From: a virus | Length of the DNA stretch: 64,000 bases | IMG/VR virus record: IMGVR_UViG_3300022916_000005 | Direction: 5' to 3' (one strand) | Part shown: positions 25,058-62,755 of the stretch, one piece after another | Numbering within the stretch: the stretch's first letter is position 1 | Layout of the letters: each line of letters opens with the position of its first letter | Position numbers and translations under genes: made by a program | The notes under the pieces: generated by a model | What the model was told of the DNA's origin: nothing | The model's input: only the letters and a program-made list of their open reading frames with translations | Database searches by the model: none

Positions 25058-25312
25058 ATGATTCAATTCCTTCTCGCTTGTTTGGGTCTTTTTCTGATCA
25101 TATTCCTCATTTTGGTAAGTCGTTATTATGAGGAAAAATTGGAGGAAGAAGTCCATAAAACAAGATGCCCAAAATGTGGTGGAATGTGGAAGATACACAA
25201 CTGGTTTCGCGGTATGGTGGTTCTTTCTTGCCCCAAATATCACGAGTTAAACCATGTCAGCCTTTCCTCATTTGAACAATTTGAAAAATATTGCAACAAC
25301 AAGGAAGGATAA
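25058..25312 (+). CDS. Membrane-anchored Zn-ribbon protein (paralog of 28117)
   Basis: N-terminal TM, CPKC...CPK; promoter at 24999-25027. Confidence 0.6.
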   Translation: MIQFLLACLGLFLIIFLILVSRYYEEKLEEEVHKTRCPKCGGMWKIHNWFRGMVVLSCPKYHELNHVSLSSFEQFEKYCNNKEG

Positions 25313-25830
25313 TGATCAAGCCATATCAAATTTGGGCAGATGGCACCGTCATTTATAATCGCGATCACTATACTCCAAGACCTGATGGTTGTGCCATTAG
25401 TATCCCAGAGAAGATAATCATTTGGTATCAAAATAACAAGTATCACCGCACTGATGGTCCTGCCATTGAATATGCCAATGGTGGCAAAGAATGGTATCAA
25501 AATAACAAGCGTCACCGCTTTGACGGCCCTGCCATTGAATTTGCCAATGGCGACAAATCTTGGTACATTGATGGCAAGTGTCACCGCATTGACGGCCCTG
25601 CCATTGAATATGCCAATGGTACCAAATTTTGGTTTCAAAATGGCAAATATCACCGCATTGACGGCCCTGCCATTGAATATGCCAATGGTGACAAATTTTG
25701 GTATCAAAATGGCAAACATCACCACATTGACGGCCCTGCCGTTGAATATGCCAATGGTACCAAATTTTGGTATATTGATGGTGTCGAATATTCCGAGCAT
25801 GACTATAAAATTGAGATGAGCAACAAATGA
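25312..25830 (+). CDS. MORN-like HRxDGPA repeat protein, class I (5 repeats)
   Basis: 23-aa/69-bp repeats; [16 protein letters not shown]-cap. Confidence 0.85.
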   Translation: MIKPYQIWADGTVIYNRDHYTPRPDGCAISIPEKIIIWYQNNKYHRTDGPAIEYANGGKEWYQNNKRHRFDGPAIEFANGDKSWYIDGKCHRIDGPAIEYANGTKFWFQNGKYHRIDGPAIEYANGDKFWYQNGKHHHIDGPAVEYANGTKFWYIDGVEYSEHDYKIEMSNK

Positions 25831-26450
25831 AAAATAAAAATAAAAATAACAGCAGCAGTAACAATCATTTAGATCGAATTAATGCACTTCTTATTGATAA
25901 GCTTGAATATCTTGATGACAAAACAAAAGAAGTATTGACATCTTTTGAGAATCATGTTACAAATAGAGGGAGCTTAACGATGAATCAAGAAAAATGGTTC
26001 ATCAAGATGGAAGAAGAATATAGTGATGAGAATATCGCTATTATGGATGAATGGGAATATGGAGACGAAGAAAAAGAAAACGCTACAATTGCTGCACATT
26101 ACAATTCTGCGGGAAGATGGCACACAGATCTGTCAGCTAAGATTCTGATCGATTATGTTCCAACATACACGGAATATAGAAGCTTGACAGAGAATTCTTA
26201 TGCCAAGAAAGTAATTGAAGAAACAAAGAAGACTCCTAGATTTGCAGTTGGTAATTTGGTTCAAGCAAGGGCAACAGCAAGCTTGGGATATAAAAATAAA
26301 CCAGGGATGATTGTAAAGATAGTTAATGATCCTATTCTTGTTTCTGCTCGTGGAGCAAAAGAATATATGGTAAAGTTTTATCATGGCCCTCTTTTGACAG
26401 TTCAAGAGAGGTGGCTAAAATTTCAAAAGGGAGAAAAGAAGGGGAAATAA
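25827..26450 (+). CDS. Hypothetical protein with a C-terminal KOW/SH3-like segment
   Basis: PRFAVGNLV...G.K.Y.V. Confidence 0.6.
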   Translation: MKNKNKNNSSSNNHLDRINALLIDKLEYLDDKTKEVLTSFENHVTNRGSLTMNQEKWFIKMEEEYSDENIAIMDEWEYGDEEKENATIAAHYNSAGRWHTDLSAKILIDYVPTYTEYRSLTENSYAKKVIEETKKTPRFAVGNLVQARATASLGYKNKPGMIVKIVNDPILVSARGAKEYMVKFYHGPLLTVQERWLKFQKGEKKGK

Positions 26451-26672
26451 ATGAATTTAATAACAATACAAGAAGAAGAAAATCCACCAGAAACAGTGTA
26501 TCTGCCAGCGAACACATTGGTTCTAAATAAGGACAATAGCCTTGAATTTTATACAGAAGGGGAACCACAAACGGCAATTATGATCAATTGGATGGAAAAT
26601 TATAGAAAGTGTTTGGTAATGATAAAACACAACAGATTAGTTTACGTAGACAAAAATAAAATATATAAATAA
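26451..26672 (+). CDS. Hypothetical protein
   Basis: Coupled ORF. Confidence 0.5.
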   Translation: MNLITIQEEENPPETVYLPANTLVLNKDNSLEFYTEGEPQTAIMINWMENYRKCLVMIKHNRLVYVDKNKIYK

Positions 26673-26684
26673 AAAGGAGATATA

Positions 26685-26951
26685 ATGGTCAATTTAACAA
26701 GAGTAGTAAAAATTACAACGTACGATTGTTCTGGAGAAAGTTGCTATAGATTAAGCTCGATTGATGTGAACCCGAAAAATGTAGAAACAATTGAAGAAGA
26801 TGTGTCGATGACTAATCTTCATAGTAAAACTCCGATTAGTAAAGAGATTGATAAGTATGCAAGGTTTACCAAAATTGCATTAACAAGCGGAAAAGAAATC
26901 ACAGTAATCGGGGAAAATGGCAAAATTTTAAGCAAAATCAAACTAGGATAA
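26685..26951 (+). CDS. FlbD-family-like small protein
   Basis: MV.LTR...VNP..VETIEE...T.I.L.SG....V pattern. Confidence 0.5.
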   Translation: MVNLTRVVKITTYDCSGESCYRLSSIDVNPKNVETIEEDVSMTNLHSKTPISKEIDKYARFTKIALTSGKEITVIGENGKILSKIKLG

Positions 26952-26958
26952 TCAAAAG

Positions 26959-27369
26959 ATGAAATGGTATCAGATCTTCTCAGATGGAACCGTTATTTAT
27001 GATGATGATTTAAAACAGGATACGATATACCCTGACGGTTGTTCCATTGAAATTCCAACAAAATCTTTGAGATGGTTTAAGAACAACAAGCTTCATCGAG
27101 ATGGTGGTCCTGCCGCCGTTTATACCGATGGTACCAAACATTGGTTTCAAAATGGCAAACATCACCGCATTGACGGCCCTGCCATTGAACGTGCCAATGG
27201 TGACAAATTTTGGTATCAAAATGGCAAACATCACCGCATTGACGGCCCTGCCTGTGAATATGCCAATGGTGGCAAATATTGGTACATCGAAGGGATCAAA
27301 TACACAAAGGAAGGACATCAAATTGTTGTCGATTCAATGACAAAGGAGAATGAGAATGAAAACACCTGA
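26959..27369 (+). CDS. MORN-like HRxDGPA repeat protein, class I divergent (3 repeats)
   Basis: YQIFSDGTVIY N-cap and repeats. Confidence 0.85.
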   Translation: MKWYQIFSDGTVIYDDDLKQDTIYPDGCSIEIPTKSLRWFKNNKLHRDGGPAAVYTDGTKHWFQNGKHHRIDGPAIERANGDKFWYQNGKHHRIDGPACEYANGGKYWYIEGIKYTKEGHQIVVDSMTKENENENT

Positions 27370-27882: not shown

Positions 27883-28116
27883 AAACAGCAGCATAAGGAG
27901 TATAACGATATGGATATATTATTCATTATTGTATTTATTATTGCATTGACACATATAGAACAAGAACGAAATAACAACAAATATAAAGAAGAATGTAAAA
28001 CATCAAGAGCGGCAAGATTACTTAACAGACACTACCCAGATCGTCAATAGAACTACCTTGACAACCCTTTCAGTTTGAGATATAATAAGACATAAATTGA
28101 TACAGGTAGGTCTAAA

Positions 28117-28359
28117 ATGTTAGGTTATTTTCTTATTGGTTTGATTATCTTTTCGTTAATTTATGCAATTTGGGGAGAAATCGATCTAAATAAAAGAATT
28201 GAAGAATGCAAATGTCCAGAATGTAACGTAAACTTTATGATCTTTGCAAAAATTCATAGTGTTGCGTTTGTGCAGTGTCCAAAGTGTGGATTGCATAATC
28301 AGTATGTTAGTAGGTATACCATCAAAGATTTTGAAAAGCGTTACAACAATGGCATTTAA
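28117..28359 (+). CDS. Membrane-anchored Zn-ribbon protein (paralog of 25058)
   Basis: TM, CPEC...CPKC; promoter at 28058-28086. Confidence 0.6.
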   Translation: MLGYFLIGLIIFSLIYAIWGEIDLNKRIEECKCPECNVNFMIFAKIHSVAFVQCPKCGLHNQYVSRYTIKDFEKRYNNGI

Positions 28360-28756
28360 TTCTTACCAAATATGGGCAGATGGCACCGTCATTTATGATG
28401 GCGATTATGATACTCCAAAGCCTGACGGTTGTGCCATTGGTATCCCAGACAAGGCAATTGCTTGGTATCAAAATAACAAGTATCACCGCATTGACGGCCC
28501 TGCCGTTGAATGTGCCAGTGGTGACAAATTTTGGTATCAAAATGGCGAGTATCACCGCATTGACGGCCCTGCCATTGAATATATCAATGGTACCAAATAT
28601 TGGTTTCAAAATGGCAAACATCACCGCATTGACGGCCCTGCCCGCGAATATGCCAATGGTGAAAAATATTGGTACATTGAAGGTGTCTGTTATTTCGAGC
28701 ACAAATACAACATCAAGATGAAAACTTATCACAATGAAAAAGAAAAAGAAGCATAA
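28349..28756 (+). CDS. MORN-like HRxDGPA repeat protein, class I (3 repeats)
   Basis: Repeats and class I N-cap. Confidence 0.85.
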   Translation: MAFNSYQIWADGTVIYDGDYDTPKPDGCAIGIPDKAIAWYQNNKYHRIDGPAVECASGDKFWYQNGEYHRIDGPAIEYINGTKYWFQNGKHHRIDGPAREYANGEKYWYIEGVCYFEHKYNIKMKTYHNEKEKEA

Positions 28757-30678: not shown

Positions 30679-31189
30679 AGACATCAAGGTAGGAGATATA
30701 TTTCGTGTCATTAATAATGATAAGACTTTTTCTACGACTCCTTTTCTAATTAATTTTGTCATGGAGACTTCGGCACCTTATTTCGAAATTGGATACATAT
30801 TGGTTGGTTCTCATCTTGGCAGATTAAGTCTTAATAAAGAAGATGGTGTACGGTGGCACAGAGTTGCAACATCATATGACAGAGAGAGGAATAGGATGAG
30901 TCGTAGTGTAAAAAAGAATGCCGTTCATTCTTTTACAACTAGAGGTTCGAGAGCAGGAGCACAAAAAAAGTGGAAAAAGGGAAATAACAAGAAAAGTAGG
31001 CGTGATGTAAATGAAATCACCAAACTTGTTTCTTTGTTGACGGAAGAGGGAATCGACGAAGTTGAAGATAAACTTGATCTGCCATTGACAAGAAAGAAAA
31101 AGACTGGAGACATTTGGGATTCTCCTTGTGATGGAAAGACACGAGTATATCAAGATGAAGATTATTACGAAGAGGCACTAAGAAAGTGA
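30668..31189 (+). CDS. Hypothetical protein; apparently a KVGD ORF in frame with a basic 'MSRSVKK..W..DGK' protein (internal start ~30896)
   Basis: Internal AGGA RBS plus ATG, and a composition shift. Confidence 0.5.
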   Translation: MKYKDIKVGDIFRVINNDKTFSTTPFLINFVMETSAPYFEIGYILVGSHLGRLSLNKEDGVRWHRVATSYDRERNRMSRSVKKNAVHSFTTRGSRAGAQKKWKKGNNKKSRRDVNEITKLVSLLTEEGIDEVEDKLDLPLTRKKKTGDIWDSPCDGKTRVYQDEDYYEEALRK

Positions 31190-31986
31190 TCAAGCTATAT
31201 CAAATTTGGGCAGATGGCACCGTTATTTACGATGACGATCATGATACTCCAAAGCCTGACGGTTGTGCCATTGGTATCCCAGACAAGACAATCACTTGGT
31301 ATCAAAATGGCAAACTTCACCGCACTGACGGCCCTGCCATTGAATATGCCAATGGTGACAAATCTTGGTATCAAAATAGCAAACTTTACCGCATTGACGG
31401 CCCTGCCATTGAATATGCCAATGGTGACAAACATTGGTATCAAAATGGCAAGCGTCACCGCATTGACGGCCCTGCCGTTGAACATGCCAATGGTGACAAA
31501 TCTTGGTGTCAAAATGACAAGTGTCACCGCATTGACGGCCCTGCCGTTGAATTTGCCAATGGCGACAAATCTTGGTACATTGATGGCAAGTGTCACCGCA
31601 TTGACGGCCCTGCCATTGAACATGCCAATGGTGCCAAATATTGGTATCAAAATGACACACTTCACCGCATTGACGGCCCTGCCGCCATTTATGTCAATGG
31701 TACCAAACATTGGTTTCAAAATGGCAAATATCACCGCATTGACGGCCCTGCCCGCGAATATGCCAATGGTGGCAAAGAATGGTATCAAAATAACAAGCGT
31801 CACCGCATTGACGGCCCTGCCATTGAATCTGCCAATGGTGCCAAATTTTGGTATCAAAATAACAAGCGTCACCGCATTGACGGCCCTGCCATTGAACATG
31901 TCAATGGTGACAAATCTTGGTACATTGATGGGAAGCGCTATTCCGAGCATGACTACAACATCAAAATAAGGAAACTAAATGATTAA
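31186..31986 (+). CDS. MORN-like HRxDGPA repeat protein, class I (9 repeats)
   Basis: Nine 69-bp units. Confidence 0.88.
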   Translation: MIKLYQIWADGTVIYDDDHDTPKPDGCAIGIPDKTITWYQNGKLHRTDGPAIEYANGDKSWYQNSKLYRIDGPAIEYANGDKHWYQNGKRHRIDGPAVEHANGDKSWCQNDKCHRIDGPAVEFANGDKSWYIDGKCHRIDGPAIEHANGAKYWYQNDTLHRIDGPAAIYVNGTKHWFQNGKYHRIDGPAREYANGGKEWYQNNKRHRIDGPAIESANGAKFWYQNNKRHRIDGPAIEHVNGDKSWYIDGKRYSEHDYNIKIRKLND

Positions 31987-32386
31987 TAATGAAGTAAAAT
32001 GTTCTTTTAACCCAATTCCAAAGAGGAAGAGAGGGAAAGATCAAGAAACAAAAAAAGCAGGAAGGTACTTTCGTTCCATAATCCGTGTAAAAGGACTACA
32101 AGACAGCAAGTGGGCAATTCTTGCAAATCTTGATATTCCAGAGTTTAATAGCCTTCTTGAAGAAGGGCACACAAAGGAAGATATTGTCAAAGCAGGACTA
32201 AAATATCTTAACGAAGAGCAAATTCCAAAAACGAAGGATGGAACTCCAAAAAAGGGTGGCAAACTTCCTTATGGAAAAATCCAATTTTACAAGATGGTTC
32301 CAAATGATCAGGACAAAATTCAGTGTCTATTGACGACAAATAACAGAAGCAGTTCTCACTTTTGGGGAGAAGGGGTCAAATTGTAA
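31979..32386 (+). CDS. Hypothetical basic protein
   Basis: Coupled ORF. Confidence 0.55.
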   Translation: MINNEVKCSFNPIPKRKRGKDQETKKAGRYFRSIIRVKGLQDSKWAILANLDIPEFNSLLEEGHTKEDIVKAGLKYLNEEQIPKTKDGTPKKGGKLPYGKIQFYKMVPNDQDKIQCLLTTNNRSSSHFWGEGVKL

Positions 32387-32862
32387 TGATTGAGTCTTAC
32401 CAAATATGGGCAGATGGCACCGTCATTTATGATGACAATAATGACATTCCAAAGCCTGACGGTTGTGCCATTAGTATCCCAAGCAAGACAATCATTTGGT
32501 ATCAAAATGGCAAACATCACCGCATTGACGGCCCTGCCATTGAACATGCCAATGGTACCAAATATTGGTTTCAAAATGGCAAACTTCACCGCATTGACGG
32601 CCCTGCCCGCGAATATGCCAATGGTGACGAACTTTGGTATCAAAATGGCAAGCGTCACCGCATTGACGGCCCTGCCGTTGAATATGTCAATGGTGACAAA
32701 CATTGGTATCAAAATGGCAAGCGTCACCGCATTGACGGCCCTGCCGTTGAACGTGCCAATGGTGGCAAATATTGGTACATCGAAGGGATCAAATATTCCG
32801 AGCATGACTACAATATTAAAATCATTAATTTAAGCAAGGGCAAAAATAATGACTCACTATGA
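32386..32862 (+). CDS. MORN-like HRxDGPA repeat protein, class I (4 repeats)
   Basis: Repeats and N-cap. Confidence 0.85.
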
Positions 32863-33445: not shown

Positions 33446-33895
33446 ATGATCAAGCCATATCAAATTTGGGTAGATGGCACCGTCATTTACGATGACAATA
33501 AAGACATTCCAAAGCCTGACGGATGTGCCATTAGTATCCCAGACAAGACAATTAAATGGTATCAAAATGACAAACTTCACCGCACTGACGGCCCTGCCAT
33601 TGAATGTGCCAATGGTACCAAAATTTGGTATCAAAATGGCAAGTGTCACCGCATTGACGGCCCTGCCATTGAACATGCCAATGGTACCAAATATTGGTAT
33701 CAAAATGGCAAGTGTCACCGCATTGACGGCCCTGCCATTGAATATACCAATGGTGCCAAATTTTGGTATCAAAATAACAAGCGTCACCGCATTGACGGCC
33801 CTGCCATTGAATCTGCCAATGGTGACAAATCTTGGTACATTGATGGGAAGCGCTATTCCAAGCATGACTACAAAATTAAGATAAGTAACAAATGA
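33446..33895 (+). CDS. MORN-like HRxDGPA repeat protein, class I (4 repeats)
   Basis: Repeats and N-cap. Confidence 0.85.
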   Translation: MIKPYQIWVDGTVIYDDNKDIPKPDGCAISIPDKTIKWYQNDKLHRTDGPAIECANGTKIWYQNGKCHRIDGPAIEHANGTKYWYQNGKCHRIDGPAIEYTNGAKFWYQNNKRHRIDGPAIESANGDKSWYIDGKRYSKHDYKIKISNK

Positions 33896-47605: not shown

Positions 47606-48511
47606 ATGGGATACATGCATATTGACAATCTTGAGAAGCCGAGGGCACAAAGGATTTTAGACTTTAAAGAGGTTTACGTAGTTGAGAAAATTCACGGCAC
47701 GAGTTCAAATTTATCCTTTAAAATCAATGAGTTAGGAGAAGAAGAATTGAGGTTCTTTTCTGGAGGGATGAGTCATCAACTCTTCATTAACATTTTTGAT
47801 CAGGATGCTCTTCTTGCCAATTTCCGCAATCTTGGTGTGCAAGCGATTACCATCTATGGCGAAGCGTATGGCGGAAGTATGCAAAAGATGTCGCATTCAT
47901 ATGGCAAGGAGGCCAAGTTCATTGCATTTGATGTCAAAATTGTTGATCATTGGCTCGATTTCGACAAGGCCCATAAACTAGTGACAGACGACATGAATCT
48001 TGAATTCGTATGGTTTACCAAGTCGAGTACAGACATTGAAGAGTTGATCAAGTGGCGTAATCAGGAATGTCAGCAGGCAATCCGTAATGGTATGGGTCAC
48101 GGGCATAAGAGTGAAGGGATCGTAATTCGACCATTGTGGGAATGTGCTACCAACAATGGAAAGCGAATGCTTGTCAAGTTCAAGAATGCCGATTTCCAAG
48201 AAAGAAAGAACCCTCCATCGGTTGAGGATATGCTCAAGAAAGAAGAGAAGCTCAAAGTTCTTGCAGATGCGAGAAAGATTGCAGATGAGTGGGTAACAGA
48301 AATGAGGCTCACTCACGTACTTGACAAGATTGTGGGTGAAATTGATATGACTCGTACTGGCGAAATTATCAAGGCAATGCAAGAAGATGTTCTCCGAGAG
48401 GCAGAGGGAGAAATTATTGTATCAAAGAATACGTTAGGGCAGATTGCCGCAACAACGGCAAAGATGCTCAAGCGTCGATTGAATGACAATTTGATGAATA
48501 AAGAAAGATAA
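47606..48511 (+). CDS. RNA ligase, Rnl2-like nucleotidyltransferase family
   Basis: EKIHGT motif I, IYGE, FIAFDV, EGIVIRP, K.KN. Confidence 0.8.
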   Translation: MGYMHIDNLEKPRAQRILDFKEVYVVEKIHGTSSNLSFKINELGEEELRFFSGGMSHQLFINIFDQDALLANFRNLGVQAITIYGEAYGGSMQKMSHSYGKEAKFIAFDVKIVDHWLDFDKAHKLVTDDMNLEFVWFTKSSTDIEELIKWRNQECQQAIRNGMGHGHKSEGIVIRPLWECATNNGKRMLVKFKNADFQERKNPPSVEDMLKKEEKLKVLADARKIADEWVTEMRLTHVLDKIVGEIDMTRTGEIIKAMQEDVLREAEGEIIVSKNTLGQIAATTAKMLKRRLNDNLMNKER

Positions 48512-48897
48512 TGATCAAGCCATATCAAATTTGGGTAGATGGCACCGTTATTTACGATGACGATTATGATACTCCAAAGCCTGACGGATGTGCCATTAGT
48601 ATCCCAGACAAGACAATTAAATGGTATCAAAATGGCAAACTTCACCGCATTGACGGCCCTGCCATCGAATATGCCGATGGTGGCAAATCTTGGTATCAAA
48701 ATGGCAAACATCACCGCATTGACGGCCCTGCCATTGAATATGTCAATGGTGACAAATGTTGGTATCAAAATGGCAAGTGTCACCGCATTGGCGGCCCTGC
48801 TCTTGAATATATTGATAGTTACAAATTTTGGTATATTGATGGTATCAAATATTCCGAGCAAGACTATAGTATTGAAATTGCTAGGAGAAGTAAATGA
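48511..48897 (+). CDS. MORN-like HRxDGPA repeat protein, class I (3 repeats)
   Basis: Repeats and N-cap; TAATG overlap with the ligase. Confidence 0.85.
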   Translation: MIKPYQIWVDGTVIYDDDYDTPKPDGCAISIPDKTIKWYQNGKLHRIDGPAIEYADGGKSWYQNGKHHRIDGPAIEYVNGDKCWYQNGKCHRIGGPALEYIDSYKFWYIDGIKYSEQDYSIEIARRSK

Positions 48898-49178: not shown

Positions 49179-49187
49179 AATAACTAT

Positions 49188-54488: not shown

Positions 54489-54588
54489 TTAAATTTTCTC
54501 CTTGACTGCCACGTCATCCTGTGGTACTATAGGGCATGAGGTTGGGGATGAAGGGTCATTCTTGGATAAGGTTGAGACAAAGGAGTTA

Positions 54589-55043: not shown

Positions 55044-55115
55044 GGGTCATGAAGTTGGTGGAGCGGGTGCTTTGCCGACACGAAATGTTCGTTTAGGTTC
55101 TTTGGAGGTTCTGTT

Positions 55116-55601: not shown

Positions 55602-55605
55602 TATC

Positions 55606-56046
55606 TGACCTGGGCATTGTCGCTAAACTGCCCATCATCGACTGTTGACCTGCATTATTATTTAGGGGTTAGATTGTGGACAGTCTTGGTTTAGTTTAGA
55701 CCTCAAACAAGTCTCAAAACTGTTTGAAATTGTTTGTAGTATCAATTTGTGTCGTGGTTATAAAGGTTGACGAAAAATGCATTGTTCACTATGTAATAGA
55801 TAGACCTAAGTAAGTCCTCTTAAACTACTTCGTCCATGTGACGTTAAATGGGTCAAGAGCCCCATTGGTTATTACGGTCAAAGATCTCCGATCAACAATC
55901 TTCACTCTATTGACCTTTCGCGCTTTTGATAAAGGCATTAATAATTACTAGGCTTAGGTAGGATTATGGAACCATTTCGTTAGCTACTGCAAGTTTAATT
56001 TTAATTTTGAGATGCTGATTATGCCTGGGCAAGCTTTAACTGCCCA
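55606..56046 (+). ncRNA. Non-coding interval with repeated H-type pseudoknot motifs (55606-55634, 55698-55727, 55803-55830, 56023-56046)
   Basis: GAC-C-[X]-GTC-..AAAC-[X'] with compensatory changes in X. Confidence 0.6.
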
Positions 56047-56053
56047 TTTTTAT

Positions 56054-56129
56054 TGCTGGTTAGGGAAATGCCACATCCCGCCTGGGGCAACATTTCAGGA
56101 GATAGCTGGTTGGATTCCAGCACCAGCAA
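56054..56129 (+). ncRNA. tRNA-like element with an aberrant anticodon arm
   Basis: TGCTGGT/ACCAGCA acceptor, GGGA/TCCC D-stem, GCTGG-TTGGATT-CCAGC T-arm. Confidence 0.6.
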
Positions 56130-56352
56130 CTTCATTCATATTGGGTATTTTTTGCTTTTGGGGTTCAATTCCCCTTTGGCTCGTGGAGAGCCAGTCTGAA
56201 CCTAGAATGACAAGTGATAATATAGAGTTGGCCGCTCGAAGAACTGCATAATGTCTAGAAGCAGTTTACCGATATTTCTTTTCCCTTGACAGTGGGACGA
56301 TCTTGTGTTACCATAGTGCATGAGGTTGAGGAAATAACGAAGGAGAAAGGAA

Positions 56353-56556
56353 ATGGAACTTAAAATAGGTTCGGTCATATGCTATAGATTTTCGGGCAGA
56401 AAATCTACAGGTGTCATCGTCGGGAAATCTCGTAAGAAGTTCTATATTGAGTGGAAGATCTTAAATGATCAGATCGTTTTATTCCCAGATAAGCCTAAAA
56501 CTTTCTCCATTGGATTCCTGCAAAACAACGTAAATGTGACAAAACTTTTCCCTTGA
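56353..56556 (+). CDS. Small KVGD-family hypothetical protein
   Basis: LKIGSVI..GVIV..W; promoter at 56286. Confidence 0.6.
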   Translation: MELKIGSVICYRFSGRKSTGVIVGKSRKKFYIEWKILNDQIVLFPDKPKTFSIGFLQNNVNVTKLFP

Positions 56557-56633
56557 CTCCCAGCCCGATTTGGGTTATGATGTACTTGTCCTGGTGAGGG
56601 AAGCAACAAAAACTGAGTGATCGAGGTAACATT

Positions 56634-56951
56634 ATGAGCGCAGACCGAATTCTCCTTGACAAGTGCCGCGATATGTTCAACGACATTCTTGAGGATCCTT
56701 TTGATACTGAAGATGGTATGCGAGACCTTCGAAACGAGATCGATCTCTATTTGGAGATGACCGCCAACGTCATTGAGCTTGGCGATACTGTCATCTTCGG
56801 GACAAAGACGGGAGAGAAGACAAAGGGAAAGGTTGTCAAGATCAATCAGAAGACCTACAATCTGGAGCTTCTTGAGATTCGCGGCAAGAACGGTCGTTAT
56901 CCGATTGGCACACCTTGGCGCGTAGCCAAGGCCATGTGCGAGAAGTGCTAG
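56634..56951 (+). CDS. Hypothetical protein with an SH3/KOW-like C-terminus (paralog of 57937)
   Basis: FGT..GEKT..KV.KIN.KT...ELLE.RGKNGRYPIG..W. Confidence 0.7.
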   Translation: MSADRILLDKCRDMFNDILEDPFDTEDGMRDLRNEIDLYLEMTANVIELGDTVIFGTKTGEKTKGKVVKINQKTYNLELLEIRGKNGRYPIGTPWRVAKAMCEKC

Positions 56952-56964
56952 AGAGGAAGTAAAA

Positions 56965-57360
56965 ACAATACCCTTGGTGAGATGCCCAAGTTCGTATTGT
57001 AGATAAGATACCAACTAGAATAGATGATGATGACTTTAGTTGGAACCATTCATCACGGCTCTTATAGAAGAATAGATTAAAATCCTGTCTATCGACCATT
57101 TGGTTGATTGTGTGATGTTGCCCCAAAGGCCAAGAGTAATCCTTGAATCACATGAAACTACACCAAATCGTCACGAGTAAAGGTTATCTTTGAATCGGGG
57201 TAAGGTTGTCAAGCGCGCTTTGTATTGTTATGAAGCAGTTTCGTAAGTGACAACCCGTTGTTAGGCGTGTTTGGGGCCATAACAGCAGAGAAGGAAAGAT
57301 CATCTATTATACTCTATAGTGGGATGATCAGTTTAAAGGCGATGTGGGGGCCATTTAAGC
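56965..57360 (+). ncRNA. Candidate ~400-nt structured RNA immediately upstream of the tRNA cluster
   Basis: No + strand ORF; many stems plus long-range pairings. Confidence 0.55.
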
Positions 57361-57387
57361 AAATTTGATACTATGTAGGGGATATAA

Positions 57388-57472
57388 GGCGCAGTGGTGG
57401 AAATGGAAATACACGAGAGACTCAAAATCTCTTGCCTTTAGCGGATTGAGAGTTCAAGTCTCTCCTGCGTCA
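57388..57472 (+). tRNA. tRNA-Leu(CAA)
   Basis: AGAGA-CTCAAAA-TCTCT, long variable arm, A73. Confidence 0.9.
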
Positions 57473-57486
57473 CTATTGACAATTAT

Positions 57487-57573
57487 GGCCCGTTGGTGGA
57501 ATTTTGGTATACGCAGTGGTCTTAGAAACCACCGGAGAAATCCATGAAGGTTCGATCCCTTCACGGGCCACCA
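57487..57573 (+). tRNA. tRNA-Leu(TAG)
   Basis: GTGGT-CTTAGAA-ACCAC, long variable arm, encoded CCA. Confidence 0.93.
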
Positions 57574-57580
57574 TTTTTGT

Positions 57581-57653
57581 TCTTCCTTAGCTCAGTTGGC
57601 TAGAGCGCAGGACTCTGAATCCTGATAGGTTGATTCAAATTCAACAGGAAGAT
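57581..57653 (+). tRNA. tRNA-Gln(CTG)
   Basis: TCTTCCT/AGGAAGA acceptor, CAGGA-CTCTGAA-TCCTG. Confidence 0.82.
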
Positions 57654-57663
57654 CTATTTTTAT

Positions 57664-57737
57664 GCCTGTTCAAGTTCATTAGGCTGAACGCTAGACTGTG
57701 AATCTAGAGGTAGTTGATTCGATTTCAACGGCAGGTA
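57664..57737 (+). tRNA. tRNA-His(GTG), atypical
   Basis: CTAGA-CTGTGAA-TCTAG; T-arm GTTGA-TTCGATT-TCAAC. Confidence 0.72.
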
Positions 57738-57748
57738 CTTTAATTTAT

Positions 57749-57820
57749 CAGAACATGATGTAATTGGGAACATCTCACGTCTGGATCGTGATTTTTTAGG
57801 TTCGAGTCCTAATGTTCTGA
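57749..57820 (+). tRNA. tRNA-Pro(TGG) with C33
   Basis: CAGAACA/TGTTCTG acceptor (C1-G72, A73), TCACG-TCTGGAT-CGTGA. Confidence 0.8.
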
Positions 57821-57936
57821 CTTGGAAGGTAGTTCAAAACTTGTTTGTCTCGCCAATTCTTTTCCCTTGACTTGTGGACTGCCTTGTGATACTATAGGGC
57901 ATGAGGTTGAGGGATTGAACGAGTTTGGAGAATAAG

Positions 57937-58272
57937 ATGACTAACGAAATGGCTTTGATGATTCGAGCAACTGGATTGCTTGACGCTCTTTGTGAAAGAC
58001 CTGCCGAAGCCAATCACATGATGGAAATTATCAAATCTCTCAAAGAGGAGATTGATATCTACATCGGGATGATGGCCAAAACCATTAATGTCGGAGATAT
58101 CGTTCGCTTCGGAACAGAGAATGGGGAAAAGACAAGAGCCAAAGTTCTCAAGATTAACGTCAAAACGTTCAGAGTCGAACTACTTGAGAAGCGCGGTAAG
58201 AATGGTCGTTATCCTATTGGCGACATTTGGAATGCCAGAAAGGAAGGTTGTGTCAAGATTGGCAATAAATGA
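57937..58272 (+). CDS. Hypothetical protein (paralog of 56634)
   Basis: Shared C-terminal domain; promoter at 57867. Confidence 0.7.
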   Translation: MTNEMALMIRATGLLDALCERPAEANHMMEIIKSLKEEIDIYIGMMAKTINVGDIVRFGTENGEKTRAKVLKINVKTFRVELLEKRGKNGRYPIGDIWNARKEGCVKIGNK

Positions 58273-58296
58273 TAACAGATAGAAGAGCAAGAGGCA

Positions 58297-58692
58297 ATGA
58301 TGGCGAATTTCGAGACATATGAAGTGAGAGTGTATGCCAATGGTACCAAATGTTGGTATCAAAATGGCAATTGTCACCGCATTGACGGCCCTGCCGTTGA
58401 ATGTGCCAGTGGTGACAAATTTTGGTATCAAAATGGCGAGTATCACCGCATTGACGGCCCTGCCATTGAATATATCAATGGTACCAAAGTTTGGTATCAA
58501 AATGGCAAGTTTCACCGCATTGACGGCCCTGCCATTGAATATGTCAATGGTGACAAATATTGGTATCTTGATGGAGAATGCTATACCGAGCATGACTATA
58601 ACACCGAGATTGCCAAGCGAAATGCCAATACTTGCGAAGATCGCCTTGTCGAGATTGACGGTATCAAGTACAAGCTGATCAAGGCTTGCTAA
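58297..58692 (+). CDS. MORN-like HRxDGPA repeat protein, class II (3 repeats)
   Basis: MANFETYEVRVY N-cap; EIAKRNANTCEDRLVEIDG C-cap. Confidence 0.85.
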   Translation: MMANFETYEVRVYANGTKCWYQNGNCHRIDGPAVECASGDKFWYQNGEYHRIDGPAIEYINGTKVWYQNGKFHRIDGPAIEYVNGDKYWYLDGECYTEHDYNTEIAKRNANTCEDRLVEIDGIKYKLIKAC

Positions 58693-58778
58693 TCCTGCCA
58701 AAACTTTCTCCTTGACTTGACGGTCATCCTGTGGTATCATGTATTATCTAGAAACGGTCGAGAAGAGAGGAAAAAGAA

Positions 58779-59057
58779 ATGGATAAAATCAAAGCTATCT
58801 TGTGGGATAAGTTTGTAGAGGATAAATTCCTTGAAGATGCTACTTTAGGACAGATTCAGGCAGAACTACGAACTATAGAGAAAGAACTTGTAATTGCAAA
58901 CTGTGAACAAGCATCAGAAGAAAACGATTATCGACCTGGAGTGGAAACTTATGGTTACTTCGATTTAGAGCAAATCAAGCTCACTCTTGAGTATATCTCT
59001 GATCGTTGGAATTGTCAGTTTAGGGTCAGATGGCTACTAGACCTCATTAACATTTAA
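58779..59057 (+). CDS. Hypothetical protein
   Basis: Behind the promoter cassette at 58712. Confidence 0.6.
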   Translation: MDKIKAILWDKFVEDKFLEDATLGQIQAELRTIEKELVIANCEQASEENDYRPGVETYGYFDLEQIKLTLEYISDRWNCQFRVRWLLDLINI

Positions 59058-59131
59058 ACTTTCCCCTTGACTTGACGGTCATCCCGTAGTATCATGTATC
59101 TAGAAACGGTCAAGAAATAACAAACGAGGCA

Positions 59132-59662
59132 ATGATGGCGAATTTCGAGACATATGAAGTGAGAGTGTATGCCAATGGTGACAAATTTTGGTGTCAAAAT
59201 GACAAGTTTCACCGCATTGACGGCCCTGCCGTTGAATATGTCAATGGTGACAAACATTGGTATCAAAATGGCAAGCGTCACCGCATTGACGGCCCTGCCG
59301 TTGAATATGTCAATGGTGACAAACATTGGTATCAAAATGGCAAGCGTCACCGCATTGACGGCCCTGCCGTTGAACATGCCAATGGTGACAAATCTTGGTA
59401 TCAAAATGGCAAGTGTCACCGCATTGACGGCCCTGCCGTTGAATCTGCCAATGGTGACAAATTTTGGTATCAAAATGACAAGTGTCACCGCATTGACGGC
59501 CCTGCCTGTGAATATGCCAATGGTGACAAAGATTGGTATCTTGATGGAGAATGTTATACCGAGCATGACTATAACACCGAGATTGCCAAGCGAAATGCCA
59601 ATACTTGCGAAGATCGCCTTGTCGAGATTGACGGTATCAAGTACAAGTTGCTCAAGGTCTGA
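59132..59662 (+). CDS. MORN-like HRxDGPA repeat protein, class II (5 repeats)
   Basis: Repeats and caps; own promoter at 59067. Confidence 0.88.
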   Translation: MMANFETYEVRVYANGDKFWCQNDKFHRIDGPAVEYVNGDKHWYQNGKRHRIDGPAVEYVNGDKHWYQNGKRHRIDGPAVEHANGDKSWYQNGKCHRIDGPAVESANGDKFWYQNDKCHRIDGPACEYANGDKDWYLDGECYTEHDYNTEIAKRNANTCEDRLVEIDGIKYKLLKV

Positions 59663-59749
59663 CAATCCTGCCAAAACTTTCCCCTTGACTTGACGGTCAT
59701 CCTGTGGTATCATGTATCTAGAAACGGTCAAGAAATAACAAACGAGGCA

Positions 59750-60142
59750 ATGATGGCGAATTTCGAGACATATGAAGTGAGAGTGTATGCCAATGGTACC
59801 AAATGTTGGTGTCAAAATGACAAGTTTCACCGCATTGACGGCCCTGCTGTTGAACATGCCAGTGGTTTCAAAGTTTGGTATCAAAATGGCAAGTTTCACC
59901 GCATTGACGGCCCTGCCGTTGAACGTGCCAATGGTGACAAATTTTGGTTTCAAAATGGCAAATATCACCGCATTGACGGCCCTGCCGTTGAATCTGCCAA
60001 TGGTGACAAATATTGGTATCTTGATGGTGTCGAATATTTCGAGCATGACTATAACACCGAGATTGCCAAGCGAAATGCCAATACTTGCGAAGATCGCCTT
60101 GTCGAGATTGACGGTATCAAGTACAAGTTGCTCAAGGTCTGA
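59750..60142 (+). CDS. MORN-like HRxDGPA repeat protein, class II (3 repeats)
   Basis: Tandem cassette copy; promoter at 59685. Confidence 0.88.
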   Translation: MMANFETYEVRVYANGTKCWCQNDKFHRIDGPAVEHASGFKVWYQNGKFHRIDGPAVERANGDKFWFQNGKYHRIDGPAVESANGDKYWYLDGVEYFEHDYNTEIAKRNANTCEDRLVEIDGIKYKLLKV

Positions 60143-60230
60143 CAATCCTGCCAAAACTTCCCCTTGACTTGACGGTCATCCTGTGGTATCATGTATCTAG
60201 AAACGGTCGAGAAGAAGGAAGGAAATATAA

Positions 60231-61358
60231 ATGGGTATGTTAGACGATAAGCGACTAAAGTTGATGATTGATCTGAAGGATATTGAATCCAAGGCAATCG
60301 ATCAGATCGAAAACATCTTGAAGATGGACTTTATCGTCAAGCTCGCCATTATGCCCGACGTTCACATGGGTTACACCTTACCAATTGGAGGTGTGGCTTT
60401 GACGAAAGATGTTATCTCTCCTGTTTTCGTAGGATATGACATTGGGTGCGGAATGTGCCTTGTCGAGACCAACATTAAGGCATCAAAGTGGAATCAGGGA
60501 AAGAAAGAGAGAATCTACAAGGCAATCTGTGAGGCAATTCCTGTCGGAAAAACGTCTCACGAGGATTCCCAGGATTATGTAGATTTTGTCTCGGAATCCA
60601 AGAACAAAAACCTTGACAAGAAGGTCAATAGTCGTCTTAAGATTCAGCTAGGAACGTTAGGATCGGGAAACCACTTCATCGAGTTAGGCGAGAACAAAGA
60701 AGGAAAGATTTGTATCACCATTCATTCAGGTTCTAGGAACATCGGACATTCTATTGCAACCTACTACATGAACATCAAACAGGACGGGCTAGACAAGGGA
60801 TTCTTGCATCTTGATTCTGTAGAAGGTCGTCAGTATGCCGCAGACCTTCTATTCGCTCAGAACTACGCATTAGACAATCGTAAGCACATGATGAAGGCTG
60901 TCCTTGAGATCCTTAATGTTAAAGATGTTGATGGTGCGATAAAGGGGATGATCAATGAAAACCACAACCATGCCATTGTTCTTGATGGTGGACTTGTTTT
61001 GCATAGGAAGGGAGCGACTCCGGCAGACAAAGGTCAGTTAGGTGTAATTCCTGCCAACATGCGAGATGGCGTGTATGTGACGAAAGGTCTTGGCAACGAT
61101 GAGTATCTTAACTCTGCCTCTCACGGATGCGGGCGAACGATGGGGAGAAATGATGCAAAGAGAAACCTTGATGTAGATGTCTTTAAGAAGGGCATGAAGG
61201 GAATTGTTGCAAGCGTTGATAAGTCGTCTTTGGATGAAGCCCCGATGGCATACAAGGATGCAAATTTTGTCATTGATGCTCAGAAGGGTATTGCGGTAGA
61301 TGTCATCGATCATATCAAGACCCTTATCGTTGTGAAAGGTACGTCAAGACCTTTATAA
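60231..61358 (+). CDS. rtcB: RtcB RNA 3'-phosphate/5'-OH ligase
   Basis: MPDVH.G, DIGCG, GTLGSGNHFIE, HSGSR, HNH, HRKGAT, SHG.GR, DEAP.AYK. Confidence 0.95.
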   Translation: MGMLDDKRLKLMIDLKDIESKAIDQIENILKMDFIVKLAIMPDVHMGYTLPIGGVALTKDVISPVFVGYDIGCGMCLVETNIKASKWNQGKKERIYKAICEAIPVGKTSHEDSQDYVDFVSESKNKNLDKKVNSRLKIQLGTLGSGNHFIELGENKEGKICITIHSGSRNIGHSIATYYMNIKQDGLDKGFLHLDSVEGRQYAADLLFAQNYALDNRKHMMKAVLEILNVKDVDGAIKGMINENHNHAIVLDGGLVLHRKGATPADKGQLGVIPANMRDGVYVTKGLGNDEYLNSASHGCGRTMGRNDAKRNLDVDVFKKGMKGIVASVDKSSLDEAPMAYKDANFVIDAQKGIAVDVIDHIKTLIVVKGTSRPL

Positions 61359-61393
61359 AACAAAATAGAGAAGAACAACATAACGAGGCAATT

Positions 61394-61786
61394 ATGGCGA
61401 ATTTCGAGACATATGAAGTGAAAGTGTATGACAATGGTGACAAATCTTGGTATCAAAATGGCAAGTGTCACCGCATTGACGGCCCTGCCATTGAATATGC
61501 CGATGGTGACAAATCTTGGTATCAAAATGGCAAGTGTCACCGCATTGACGGCCCTGCTGCCGAATATGCCGATGGTGACAAATTTTGGTATCAAAATGGC
61601 AAGCGTCACCGCATTGACGGCCCTGCCATTGAACGTGCCAATGGTGACAAATGTTGGTACATTGATGATAAGTACTATTCCGAGCATGACTACAATGCCG
61701 AGATTACCAAGCGCAATGCCAATACCTGCGAAGATCGCCTTGTCGAGATTGACGGCATCAAGTACAAGCTGATCAAGGCTTGCTAA
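61394..61786 (+). CDS. MORN-like HRxDGPA repeat protein, class II (3 repeats)
   Basis: Repeats and caps. Confidence 0.88.
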   Translation: MANFETYEVKVYDNGDKSWYQNGKCHRIDGPAIEYADGDKSWYQNGKCHRIDGPAAEYADGDKFWYQNGKRHRIDGPAIERANGDKCWYIDDKYYSEHDYNAEITKRNANTCEDRLVEIDGIKYKLIKAC

Positions 61787-61888
61787 TCCTGCCAAAACTT
61801 TCCCCTTGACTGCCACGTCATCCTGTGGTACTATAGGGCATGAGGTTGAGGGATTGAGTCAAAACGAACGAACTGAGAGGGATATATC

Positions 61889-62191
61889 ATGACGACGATT
61901 GGACGTGGAATGTTTGCGAAAGGGATCAAGTCGAGCACAGCGAACAGCAAGGTGACGGTCAAGACACCGGACGGAAAGGTGCGAACGATGCACAAGAACG
62001 GCAAGATGGCGAAGGAAGGCGGAATCGTCGGCCCGAAGGCCCACGCGCGCAATTTGCGAACGTCCGTCAAGTCCGAGAAGGTCGTCAACCGTGTCAATAC
62101 GGTTAGCGGTAGCAAGGCCGCGAAGGTCGTCATTCGCAAGCGCAACGAGGAAGCCGTCACCTTCATCACGGGTCGCATTGCCGATAACTAA
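61889..62191 (+). CDS. GC-rich, highly basic small early protein
   Basis: K/R-rich 100 aa; promoter at 61806. Confidence 0.7.
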   Translation: MTTIGRGMFAKGIKSSTANSKVTVKTPDGKVRTMHKNGKMAKEGGIVGPKAHARNLRTSVKSEKVVNRVNTVSGSKAAKVVIRKRNEEAVTFITGRIADN

Positions 62192-62362
62192 GAAATAAAC
62201 ATCATGAAGAAGATAAACCCATATAAGCTCAACGATCAAGAGGCCATTAGATTTCTTATCTTTTTGGGAATTACAGGAATGTTTGACCCATTCATGGTAT
62301 GTATCTTTCTTTCAGTTATGTGGAAGCACCTGGATTAGTAGTAGAAGCAACATAACGAGGCA

Positions 62363-62755
62363 ATGATGGCAAATTTCGAGACATATGAAGTGAGAGTGTA
62401 TGCCAATGGTGACAAACATTGGTATCAAAATGGCAAACATCACCGCATTGACGGCCCTGCCATTGAATATGTCAATGGTGACAAATATTGGTATCAAAAT
62501 GGCAAACATTACCGCATTGACGGTCCTGCTGTTGAATATGCCAATGGTGAGAAACATTGGTATCAAAATGGCAAACATCACCGCATTGACGGCCCTGCCG
62601 TTGAATATGCCAATGGTGACAAATCTTGGTATCTTGATGGTGTCGAATATTTCGAGCATGACCACAACAACGAGATTGCCAAGCGAAATGGCAATTCCTG
62701 CGAAAATCGCCTTGTCGAGATTGAAGGCGTCAAGTACAAGTTGCTCAAGGTCTGA
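62363..62755 (+). CDS. MORN-like HRxDGPA repeat protein, class II (3 repeats)
   Basis: Repeats and caps. Confidence 0.88.
   Translation: MMANFETYEVRVYANGDKHWYQNGKHHRIDGPAIEYVNGDKYWYQNGKHYRIDGPAVEYANGEKHWYQNGKHHRIDGPAVEYANGDKSWYLDGVEYFEHDHNNEIAKRNGNSCENRLVEIEGVKYKLLKV

What the first reader, a model, noticed from the sequence alone, without database searches (positions are those of the whole stretch)
25312..62755. Candidate new system: a 12-gene combinatorial repertoire of 69-bp/23-aa MORN-like repeat proteins
Seen: twelve dispersed genes (25312, 26959, 28349, 31186, 32386, 33446, 48511 = class I cap; 58297, 59132, 59750, 61394, 62363 = class II caps). They carry 5,3,3,9,4,4,3,3,5,3,3,3 = 48 copies of one unit, xHRIDGPAxExxNGxKxWxQNGK, between two alternative constant caps. 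Copy number and unit composition differ in every gene. Known: 23-aa beta-hairpin MORN/YwqK-type repeats are protein-binding scaffolds, and HRxDGPA repeats occur in large viruses. Inference: constant caps plus a shared pool of interchangeable variable modules resembles a VLR/TALE-like programmable binder library. Several members have their own early promoters, so they may act against host defence proteins or toxins.
Basis: partly seen in the sequence, partly recalled or inferred. Interest (0 to 1): 0.88.

Follow-up and report, generated by a model that had tools for sequence, protein, structure and literature searches.

The report
Fast-evolving repeat-protein gene family in phage
A large uncultured marine phage carries at least 13 genes built from one 23-residue repeat, a repeat that is very common in phage metagenomes but unstudied; a few fixed positions of the repeat change far faster than silent sites and the genes swap pieces, which fits a rapidly evolving set of binding proteins, though nothing shows a programmed, VLR- or TALE-like system.

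Summary
Twelve + strand genes carry 5,3,3,9,4,4,3,3,5,3,3,3 = 48 in-phase 23-aa units between two cap architectures, and a 13th member lies 7.5 kb upstream of the window.

The host genome is a large uncultured marine phage with DnaE polymerase, GroEL, ClpP, DnaJ and RNA-repair genes. The repeat is not new as a sequence: 26,615 cluster representatives match it, mostly viral. Pfam covers it only through a short motif of DUF6745. MORN and MORN_2 models do not match the window's proteins.

Four results stand out:
- Silent sites of the units are nearly frozen, in codons the genome otherwise avoids, while six codons (unit positions 1, 9, 11, 12, 15, 17) vary about five-fold more, at codon positions 1-2 only.
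- The caps have diverged normally (pS 0.17-0.28), so the arrays are being homogenised.
- Exact 115-119-nt tracts cross the two cap classes.
- Independent assemblies of this otherwise near-clonal phage differ in unit number, in a conversion-like patch and in cross-class chimeras.

No reverse transcriptase or template copy was found, so this is not a DGR. All genes are complete, so it is not VLR-like. Both structure models failed, and read mapping was unavailable. First-reader notes of this scan describe similar families in other genomes.

The parts
25312..25830 (+). g1, class I, 5 units (172 aa). Its ATG overlaps the stop of the upstream 84-aa ORF.
   Evidence: A 3-unit allele occurs in other assemblies.
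26959..27369 (+). g2, diverged class I, 3 units (136 aa)
28349..28756 (+). g3, class I, 3 units (135 aa). It shares an exact 115-nt tract with class II gene g8.
31186..31986 (+). g4, class I, 9 units (266 aa). GTG start overlaps the upstream ORF by 4 nt.
   Evidence: A g4/g9 chimera occurs in two assemblies.
32386..32862 (+). g5, class I, 4 units (158 aa). It overlaps the start of the phage DnaJ gene. Unit 3 is identical to g9 unit 2 (119-nt exact tract).
   Evidence: A 3-unit allele occurs in L044.
33446..33895 (+). g6, class I, 4 units (149 aa). It starts one base after the DnaJ stop.
48511..48897 (+). g7, class I, 3 units (128 aa). Its ATG overlaps the stop of the Rnl2-type RNA ligase gene.
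58297..58692 (+). g8, class II, 3 units (131 aa)
   Evidence: An allele with a roughly 100-bp conversion-like patch occurs in L046.
59132..59662 (+). g9, class II, 5 units (176 aa)
   Evidence: The gene is absent from L046 through a 618-bp deletion across a 91-nt homology.
59750..60142 (+). g10, class II, 3 units (130 aa)
   Evidence: 25 nt upstream identical to g9
61394..61786 (+). g11, class II, 3 units (130 aa)
   Evidence: A 2-unit allele occurs in L049, with a clean 69-bp deletion.
62363..62755 (+). g12, class II, 3 units (130 aa)
59067..59095 (+). sigma-70-like site TTGACT-17-TATCAT upstream of g9. The same motif recurs at 59685-59713 (g10), 58712-58740 and 60164-60192 (RtcB).
   Evidence: consensus matches only; 68 sites against 42.7 +/- 7.8 in shuffles for 47-64 kb
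24999..25027 (+). perfect TTGACA-17-TATAAT site upstream of the 84-aa ORF + g1 pair. Similar sites lie at 28058-28086 (before the ORF + g3 pair) and at 33360-33388 (58 nt before g6).
   Evidence: consensus matches only; the count does not exceed shuffles in this stretch

Best explanation
This is a lineage-specific expansion (at least 13 genes, 50 units) of a very widespread, uncharacterised, mostly phage-borne 23-residue repeat family with the motif HRxDGPA...WYxNG. Pfam catches it only as a short motif of DUF6745. Homologous recombination between the 69-bp units keeps the arrays alike (concerted evolution). The same recombination moves tracts between genes, changes unit number and makes chimeras. 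Selection meanwhile keeps six positions per unit different. The most likely role is a set of small cytoplasmic binding proteins made from early or middle transcripts. In this reading each protein presents a different surface built from the variable positions, and the conserved caps (especially the class II tail) give a common function or partner. Shown: the family, its evolutionary signature, the mosaicism and the differences between assemblies. Inferred: the strand-and-turn architecture, the binding function, the timing of expression and any link to host defence.
For: (1) Anatomy. (2) Family size and range. There are 26,615 representatives at E<=1e-3 and 13,510 at E<=1e-10, and more than 7,600 near-length homologues. 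The nearest ESM Atlas clusters are about 95% viral, mainly Uroviricota. Smaller multigene sets occur in other large marine phage contigs, one of which has a DnaE 47% identical to the window's. (3) Selection. Third-base diversity within one amino acid averages 0.084, against 0.46 at codon positions 1-2 of the six variable codons, whose own third bases stay fixed. Parsimony gives 9.0 changes per site against 1.2-2.0 (Mann-Whitney p = 6e-6). The frozen codons are not the genome's preferred ones: CGC 76% against 4%, GCC 95% against 20%. Positions 4, 20 and 23 vary freely across the family but are fixed in this genome, so the units share recent ancestry or homogenisation. (4) The caps diverged normally: pS 0.275 and 0.173, pN/pS 0.4-0.5. 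(5) The same positions (1, 9, 11, 15, 17) vary in four other phage contigs, each with its own 'house' codons. (6) Exchange. Exact 119-nt (g5/g9) and 115-nt (g3/g8) tracts cross the cap classes, and the nearest unit lies in another gene for at least 43 of 48 units. (7) Population. Assemblies from other samples are 99.99-100% identical over 10-18 kb outside the repeats. Inside them they show g1 with 3 or 5 units, g5 with 3 or 4, g11 with 2 or 3, loss of g9, a 9-nt patch in g8 and a g4/g9 cross-class chimera with a 28-kb deletion. The 3-unit g1 allele is on 3 contigs and the chimera on 2 contigs, from different samples. (8) Shine-Dalgarno-like sequences precede most members, with translational coupling or promoter-like sites.
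Against: No structure is available: both AlphaFold2 models have mean pLDDT 46-49 and Foldseek found nothing significant. No ligand, partner or expression data exist. Short-read assemblers can collapse or mis-join repeats, although the shared exact tracts (89-119 nt) are shorter than the final k-mers. The unit tree used for parsimony ignores recombination. By simple strand alternation the variable positions fall on both faces (1, 12, 15, 17 on one; 9, 11 on the other), so a single binding face is not established.
Confidence: 0.6

Rival explanations
1. A neutral accordion. The genes are dispensable, recombination-prone repeat DNA. The variable positions are simply unconstrained surface residues, and the unit-number changes and chimeras are by-products of repeat instability or assembly errors, with no adaptive diversification.
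For: The same positions are among the most variable across the whole family. Variants include loss of g9 and a 28-kb deletion, which suggests the genes can be lost. Contigs often end inside these genes, as expected for repeats that are hard to assemble.
Against: Relaxed constraint gives dN/dS near 1, not the roughly five-fold excess over silent sites inside the same 69-bp units and even inside the same codons. Positions 4, 20 and 23 are just as free family-wide yet are fixed here. All 48 units and 12 genes keep open frames and intact caps, and the caps are under purifying selection. The pattern recurs in other phages.
Confidence: 0.15
2. A programmed diversification system. Dedicated machinery shuffles or mutates the cassettes within an infection cycle or lineage. 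It could resemble VLR assembly, pilin or VSG-type cassette conversion, or a DGR, with the 12 genes acting both as expressed copies and as donors.
For: There are mosaic tracts across cap classes, a conversion-like patch in g8, reciprocal-looking chimeras, NNY-type variable codons, and repeated promoter plus N-cap cassettes at breakpoints.
Against: No ORF of 250 aa or more in the window looks like a reverse transcriptase. No non-coding template copy exists. The A-rich scaffold codons AAA, AAT, GAA and CAA are invariant, and the variable first bases are almost only T or C, which does not fit adenine-directed mutagenesis. All members are complete genes with their own starts, unlike an incomplete germline VLR gene. 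Most assemblies from different samples carry identical arrays, so change is occasional, not per-generation. The phage's general recombination genes (a RecA/UvsX-like gene, and SbcCD per an earlier scan note) are enough to explain the exchanges.
Confidence: 0.1
3. Structural or envelope-binding proteins. The repeats would bind cell wall or membrane, as MORN-type repeats do in some endolysins and eukaryotic membrane proteins, or would decorate the virion.
For: MORN repeats are reported in phage endolysins and are common in marine viral long reads (PMC9238414). One distant homologue carries a phage tail collar domain.
Against: The window's proteins have no lytic, signal or tail domains. They are 128-266 aa long and lie among replication, chaperone and RNA-repair genes behind sigma-70-like sites. 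MORN and MORN_2 models do not match them.
Confidence: 0.07

Closest known systems
Pfam DUF6745 (PF20530) and the metagenomic 'DUF6745 domain-containing' phage protein clusters
   Same: It is the only curated model that matches: g1 scores 30.6 bits and g4 31.1 bits against a cut-off of 27. Most homologues carry the same label, and the nearest ESM Atlas clusters are named after it and are about 95% viral.
   Different: Only about 18-30 of the 206 profile positions (roughly 57-93) are matched, repeatedly. What is shared is a short WYxNGxxHRxDGPA-type motif, not the domain. The other window members score below the cut-off. No paper in the searched library mentions DUF6745.
MORN (PF02493) and MORN variant / YwqK-type repeats (PF07661)
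   Same: Both have a 23-residue period, Gly-rich turns with aromatic residues, and predicted short beta strands. A few homologues reach the edge of the MORN_2 threshold: P0070 scores 29.5 bits against 29.6. Weak, non-significant Foldseek rows include MORN1 and SET7/9.
   Different: The window's proteins give no MORN or MORN_2 match even at E<=5, no YwqK-family NCBIfam match and no PDB sequence match. Three Asn-Gly or Asp-Gly dipeptides per unit, spaced 8, 8 and 7 residues, suggest three short strands per unit rather than one long hairpin. This is inference.
Expanded repeat-protein multigene families of large DNA viruses (ankyrin, MORN, FNIP, F-box and BTB-Kelch families of giant viruses and poxviruses)
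   Same: Both show many paralogues of a binding-type repeat, lineage-specific expansion, copy-number change by recombination, and a presumed role in host interaction (PMC5753266; PMC6418002, listed).
   Different: Here the virus is a tailed phage, the proteins are very small, and the units are homogenised at silent sites while six codons diversify. In addition, the variation is seen between assemblies of one near-clonal population.
Diversity-generating retroelement (DGR) targets
   Same: Both have variable codons of NNY type at fixed positions in an otherwise constant scaffold.
   Different: There is no RT, no template repeat and no adenine specificity, and there are 48 variable units in 12 genes instead of one C-terminal variable region.
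Lamprey VLR and TALE repeat arrays
   Same: Both are capped arrays of near-identical modules that differ at a few positions, with modules exchanged between loci.
   Different: There is no incomplete germline gene, no sign of somatic or within-cycle assembly, no two-residue code and no evidence of DNA binding. The exchange fits ordinary homologous recombination at 55-119-nt identities.

Membership tests
MORN / MORN_2 (PF02493, PF07661) | Match to the Pfam repeat models at or above the gathering score | tested here: not met
   No MORN or MORN_2 hit for 7 members at E<=0.01, nor for g4 at E<=5. Only some distant homologues reach about 29.5 bits.
MORN / MORN_2 (PF02493, PF07661) | Repeat of about 23 residues that forms beta hairpins in an extended sheet | tested here: inconclusive
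   The 23-aa period is exact. AlphaFold2 predicts repeated short strands, but at pLDDT 46-49, and Foldseek gives no hit at E<=0.001.
DUF6745 (PF20530) | Whole-protein score above the gathering cut-off (27 bits) | tested here: inconclusive
   Met by g1 (30.6) and g4 (31.1). Not met by g2 (16.3), g7 (25.6), g9 (20.4) or g12 (19.6). g8 has no hit.
DUF6745 (PF20530) | Coverage of the 206-position domain model | tested here: not met
   The best stretches cover only profile positions of about 59-93.
DGR variable protein | Reverse transcriptase and a template repeat near the variable repeats | tested here: not met
   No RT among the ORFs of 250 aa or more. No extra unit copy by nhmmer. The rest of the roughly 157-kb genome could not be scanned.
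DGR variable protein | Differences confined to template adenines | tested here: not met
   Invariant A-rich codons (AAA 47/48; AAT 40/48 and GAA 46/48, each with no synonymous alternative used). Variable first bases are almost only T or C.
VLR-type assembled receptor | Incomplete expressed gene completed by copying from flanking cassettes | tested here: not met
   All 12 members are complete ORFs with start, caps and stop. Most assemblies from other samples carry identical arrays.
TALE-type coded repeat | One repeat reads one base through a two-residue code, with DNA binding | not testable with these tools
   Six variable positions per unit, not two adjacent ones. No binding data.
Viral expanded repeat-protein multigene family (descriptive class) | Many paralogues in one genome, lineage-specific units, copy-number change by recombination | tested here: met
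   At least 13 genes. Each genome has its own 'house' codons. Unit and gene number vary among assemblies.

The most novel reading that the evidence does not exclude
The family is a phage-side repertoire of target adaptors. The conserved caps would dock on a common effector. Candidates are the truncated phage J-protein (J domain plus zinc finger, no substrate-binding domain on record) that is translationally coupled to g5 and g6, the nearby ClpP/GroEL/MoxR set, or, for class II, the RNA-repair genes. The variable arrays would pick different host proteins. Interparalogue recombination would continually reshuffle specificities in the population as an arms-race device. That would make it a prokaryotic-virus counterpart of the poxvirus and giant-virus ankyrin/F-box families, and a natural scaffold for engineered binders.
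Probability: 0.15. Interest if true: 0.85.

Novelty: new variant of a known kind. Interest (0 to 1): 0.6.

Why it matters
The repeat is one of the commoner uncharacterised protein motifs in phage metagenomes, with tens of thousands of clusters, yet the searched papers contain no description of it. This window gives an unusually clean case. Inside one near-clonal marine phage population the only loci that differ structurally are these genes. Inside the genes, a handful of codons change several-fold faster than silent sites, while recombination keeps everything else identical. That marks the family as a prime candidate for phage-host interaction proteins and identifies the residues to mutate. 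It also warns that such loci break or mis-join metagenome assemblies. If the proteins prove to be specific binders, they would be a small, modular, naturally diversified scaffold.

Tried and rejected
- Two AlphaFold2 jobs, one per cap class with paralogue alignments, gave mean pLDDT 48.8 and 46.1. The 'one face' test could therefore not be done.
- Foldseek against the PDB gave no hit at E<=0.001. The weak top rows (CPAP G-box, MORN1, SET7/9, OspA) are not evidence.
- phmmer against PDB sequences gave only chance-level hits. NCBIfam and PHROGs gave nothing for the repeat proteins.
- Complex prediction (phage DnaJ with a class I member) was not available.
- No whole genome is held for the window, and the JGI record behind L001 is not searchable.
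- An exact 30-mer of the window is absent from IMG/VR. Megablast of 12 kb against cultured phages found nothing.
- The neighbouring 394-aa protein has no relative in viral contigs. RtcB relatives come from unrelated phages without the repeats.
- tblastn against cultured phages found the family only in Celeribacter phage P12053L, Agrobacterium phage Atu_ph07 and one uncultured 642-kb phage, all annotated as hypothetical.
- Literature searches for DUF6745 and for the motif strings returned nothing.
- The DGR reading was considered and rejected.
- Codon bias as the cause of the frozen silent sites was rejected.
- Domain fusions in long homologues (LRV/HEAT, EF-hand, tail collar, DUF3310, DUF7666) gave no consistent functional hint.
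Full report
**Observation.** The window is almost entirely coded on the + strand, with about 36-45% G+C. Translating the twelve stated ORFs gives proteins of 128-266 aa. A six-frame scan for the core motif finds 48 units. All lie inside these twelve genes and all are spaced exactly 23 residues apart, with 5,3,3,9,4,4,3,3,5,3,3,3 units per gene. An nhmmer profile of the 69-bp unit finds the 48 copies, the half-units in the caps, and nothing else on either strand. Seven genes (g1-g7) share a 43-44-aa N-cap and a short C-cap. Five genes (g8-g12) share a 24-25-aa N-cap and a 36-37-aa C-cap. 47 of the 48 units differ in protein sequence. A 13th, more diverged 2-unit member lies about 7.5 kb upstream of the window (L035 2457-2759). 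I followed up an earlier scan note for that one.

**What the DNA is.** The window encodes:
- ThyX, a GIY-YIG endonuclease, a DnaB-type helicase, class I RNR, an MT-A70 methylase and a DnaE-type polymerase;
- dUTPase, ClpP, GroEL, a short DnaJ, a MoxR-type AAA protein with a DUF2201/VWA partner, and HNH endonucleases;
- two metallophosphoesterases, Rnl2- and Rnl1-type RNA ligases, RtcB and nine tRNAs.

It is a large uncultured tailed phage. A JGI seawater-metagenome contig (L001) is 99.995% identical over 20.4 kb. The longest matching assembly is a 157-kb ENA contig. No cultured phage is close.

**Family identity.** Pfam gives only DUF6745. Scores exceed the cut-off for g1 and g4 but cover only about 18-30 of the 206 profile positions. 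MORN and MORN_2 do not match even at E<=5. NCBIfam, PHROGs and PDB sequences give nothing. The repeat is nevertheless extremely common:
- more than 7,600 near-length homologues;
- 26,615 50%-identity representatives at E<=1e-3, up to 1,900 aa long;
- nearest ESM Atlas clusters about 95% viral, mainly Uroviricota.

It is rare in cultured phages and always annotated as hypothetical there. It occurs sporadically in bacterial genomes such as Micavibrio, Bdellovibrio and Janthinobacterium. Hits start at about residue 37 of g7, so the class I N-cap is largely specific to this lineage. The class II architecture, with a short N-cap, the array, a helix and a conserved C-terminal strand pair, recurs in other large marine phage contigs (L019, L022, L023, L024). 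Those contigs carry their own sets of 4-10 matches. One of them (G002, 176 kb) has a DnaE 47% identical to the window's. First-reader notes of this scan report similar multigene arrays in other genomes. I did not check those notes.

**Evolutionary signature.** Across the 48 units the silent sites are nearly frozen. Examples are CAC 45/46 of the His codons, CGC 46/47 of the Arg codons, CCT 48/48, GCC 44/48 and GAA 46/46 of the Glu codons. In contrast, unit positions 1, 9, 11, 12, 15 and 17 vary at codon positions 1-2 with a fixed third base.
- Third-base diversity within one amino acid averages 0.084. Diversity at positions 1-2 of the six variable codons averages 0.46.
- Fitch parsimony on a unit tree gives 9.0 changes per site there, 1.2-2.0 at third positions and 1.2 at the other first and second positions (p = 6e-6). 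The tree ignores recombination, but it is fitted to the variable sites, so the count is conservative.
- The frozen codons are not the phage's preferred ones: CGC 76% against 4% in reference genes, GCC 95% against 20%, GGC 57% against 12%. Codon bias is therefore excluded.
- The caps of the same genes have diverged normally: pS 0.275 and pN 0.110 for the class I N-cap, pS 0.173 and pN 0.084 for the class II C-cap. The arrays are therefore homogenised relative to their own caps.
- Across 1,025 units from 264 homologues, positions 4, 20 and 23 are as variable as 1, 9 and 17. In this genome they are fixed.

Relaxed constraint alone cannot explain why only six codons differ. The simplest reading is concerted evolution plus diversifying selection at those codons. 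The same positions vary in L019, L020, L022 and L023, each with its own 'house' codons.

**Exchange and population variation.** Exact tracts of 119 nt (g5/g9) and 115 nt (g3/g8) join genes of different cap classes that lie 27-30 kb apart. For at least 43 of 48 units the nearest unit is in another gene. For 13 units the nearest is only in the other class, and 12 more are tied with a unit of the other class. Assemblies of the same phage from other samples are 99.99-100% identical over 10-18 kb outside the repeats. Inside the repeats they differ as follows:
- g1 has 3 units instead of 5, through an in-frame fusion of units 3 and 5 (L038). This allele is on 3 contigs.
- g5 lacks unit 3 (L044).
- g11 lacks one unit, with a clean 69-bp deletion across a 55-nt identity (L049).
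- g9 is deleted across a 91-nt identity that covers the promoter-like site and the N-cap (L046).
- g8 carries a 9-nt patch within about 100 bp that makes its unit 2 closer to g3.
- One 194-aa gene joins the class I N-cap and g4 units 1-2 to g9 units 3-5 and the class II C-cap, with 28 kb missing (L047). It is seen in two samples.
- A JGI contig, for which no DNA was available, has the gene order expected for the reciprocal g9/g5 chimera next to DnaJ.

These are assemblies, not reads. The shared identities are, however, shorter than the final k-mers, and two variants recur in different samples.

**What it is not.** It is not a DGR. No ORF of 250 aa or more resembles a reverse transcriptase and there is no template copy. 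A-rich scaffold codons are invariant, and the variable first bases are almost only T or C. It is not VLR-like, because every member is a complete gene and most assemblies carry identical arrays. It is not demonstrably TALE-like, because there are six variable positions, no code and no sign of DNA binding.

**Structure (inferred).** Both AlphaFold2 models are unreliable, but they agree on short strands at unit positions 16-20 and 23-4, with a bridge at 9-10. Each unit has three Asn-Gly or Asp-Gly dipeptides, at positions 5-6, 13-14 and 21-22, spaced 8, 8 and 7 residues. These are the classic two-residue type I' turn sequences (textbook knowledge). A three-strand meander per unit is therefore likely. 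Simple strand alternation then places positions 1, 12, 15 and 17, together with R3, A8, E10 and Y19, on one face. It places 9 and 11, together with H2, I4, P7, K16, W18 and Q20, on the other, more hydrophobic face. Substitutions at 9 and 11 are mostly conservative (I/V, Y/H/F). The three most variable positions would thus share a polar face, and their residues are the Tyr/His/Ser/Arg/Phe/Cys types common in binding sites. This is inference, not a result.

**Function.** Most members are preceded by Shine-Dalgarno-like sequences. Five class I genes overlap or abut the stop of the upstream gene. g9 and g10 carry an identical upstream region with a TTGACT-17-TATCAT site. The 47-64 kb stretch has more sigma-70-like sites than shuffles do (68 against 42.7 +/- 7.8). 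Perfect consensus sites precede the small operons that contain g1 and g3. The genes lie among replication, chaperone or protease and RNA-repair genes. Relatives place them near a MoxR-type AAA gene, a metallophosphoesterase and an RNA-repair HAD domain. I conclude, with moderate confidence, that these are small cytoplasmic binding proteins of the early or middle programme. Their specificity surfaces are under diversifying selection, most plausibly because they engage variable host (or competing-element) proteins. Targets and mechanism are unknown.

**Verdict.** The sequence family is known only as a DUF and is very widespread, and expanded repeat families are known in large viruses. The novel part is the clear combination, in a phage, of three things: silent-site homogenisation, codon-specific diversification, and recombinational variation visible within one population. 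Interest is 0.6.

Noticed in passing
L035 2457-2759 (about 7.5 kb upstream of window position 1): A 13th family member of 100 aa with 2 units, a class II-like N-cap and more diverged units. It lies next to gp32-like and RecA/UvsX-like genes.
   Followed up: partly
window 32849-33445: The phage DnaJ is only 198 aa, with a J domain and a CXXCXGXG zinc finger but no substrate-binding C-terminal domain on record. g5 overlaps its start and g6 starts one base after its stop. ClpP (21599-22186), GroEL (22207-23766), a MoxR-type AAA gene (35620-36870) and a DUF2201/VWA gene (39268-40560 region) lie nearby.
   Followed up: partly
window 43984-61358: A full RNA-repair set: two metallophosphoesterases (43984-44757, 53346-53954), an Rnl2-type ligase (47606-48511), an Rnl1/gp63-type ligase (51137-52318), RtcB (60231-61358) and a tRNA cluster (57388-57821). 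This suggests defence against host anticodon nucleases. The class II repeat genes are interleaved with it.
   Followed up: no
window 47000-64000: An excess of sigma-70-like promoter matches on the + strand (68 against 42.7 +/- 7.8 in shuffles). Many share TTGACT/TTGACA-17-TATCAT with an upstream TG, including a stack at 54784-55043.
   Followed up: no
window 59054-60154 (-) and 31195-31950 (-): Long antisense open frames of 366 and 251 aa run through the repeat genes. They are most likely a by-product of the stop-free repeated codon pattern, not genes.
   Followed up: no
L047 (ENA ERZ27250245 k141_658446, 74 kb) against window 31.5-59.4 kb: This assembly lacks about 28 kb between g4 and g9, including DnaJ, the MoxR gene, tRNAs and both RNA ligases. 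It is either a natural deletion variant made by recombination between repeat genes or an assembly chimera. The same chimeric gene occurs in a second sample.
   Followed up: partly
window 918-1958, 2146-4095, 37014-37757 (-), 39268-40560: Several selfish elements: a GIY-YIG/NUMOD3 homing endonuclease, a DnaB helicase with a weak intein-splicing hit in the JGI annotation, and two HNH endonuclease genes.
   Followed up: no
window 63450-63630: A second small patch of microdiversity between assemblies (clustered SNPs and a 1-nt indel), outside the repeat genes.
   Followed up: no
L020/L021 8400-11250: Another phage contig has six tandem family members. Their C-terminal module is different (a helix-rich tail in place of the class II strand pair), so the arrays combine with alternative tails in different lineages.
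   Followed up: partly
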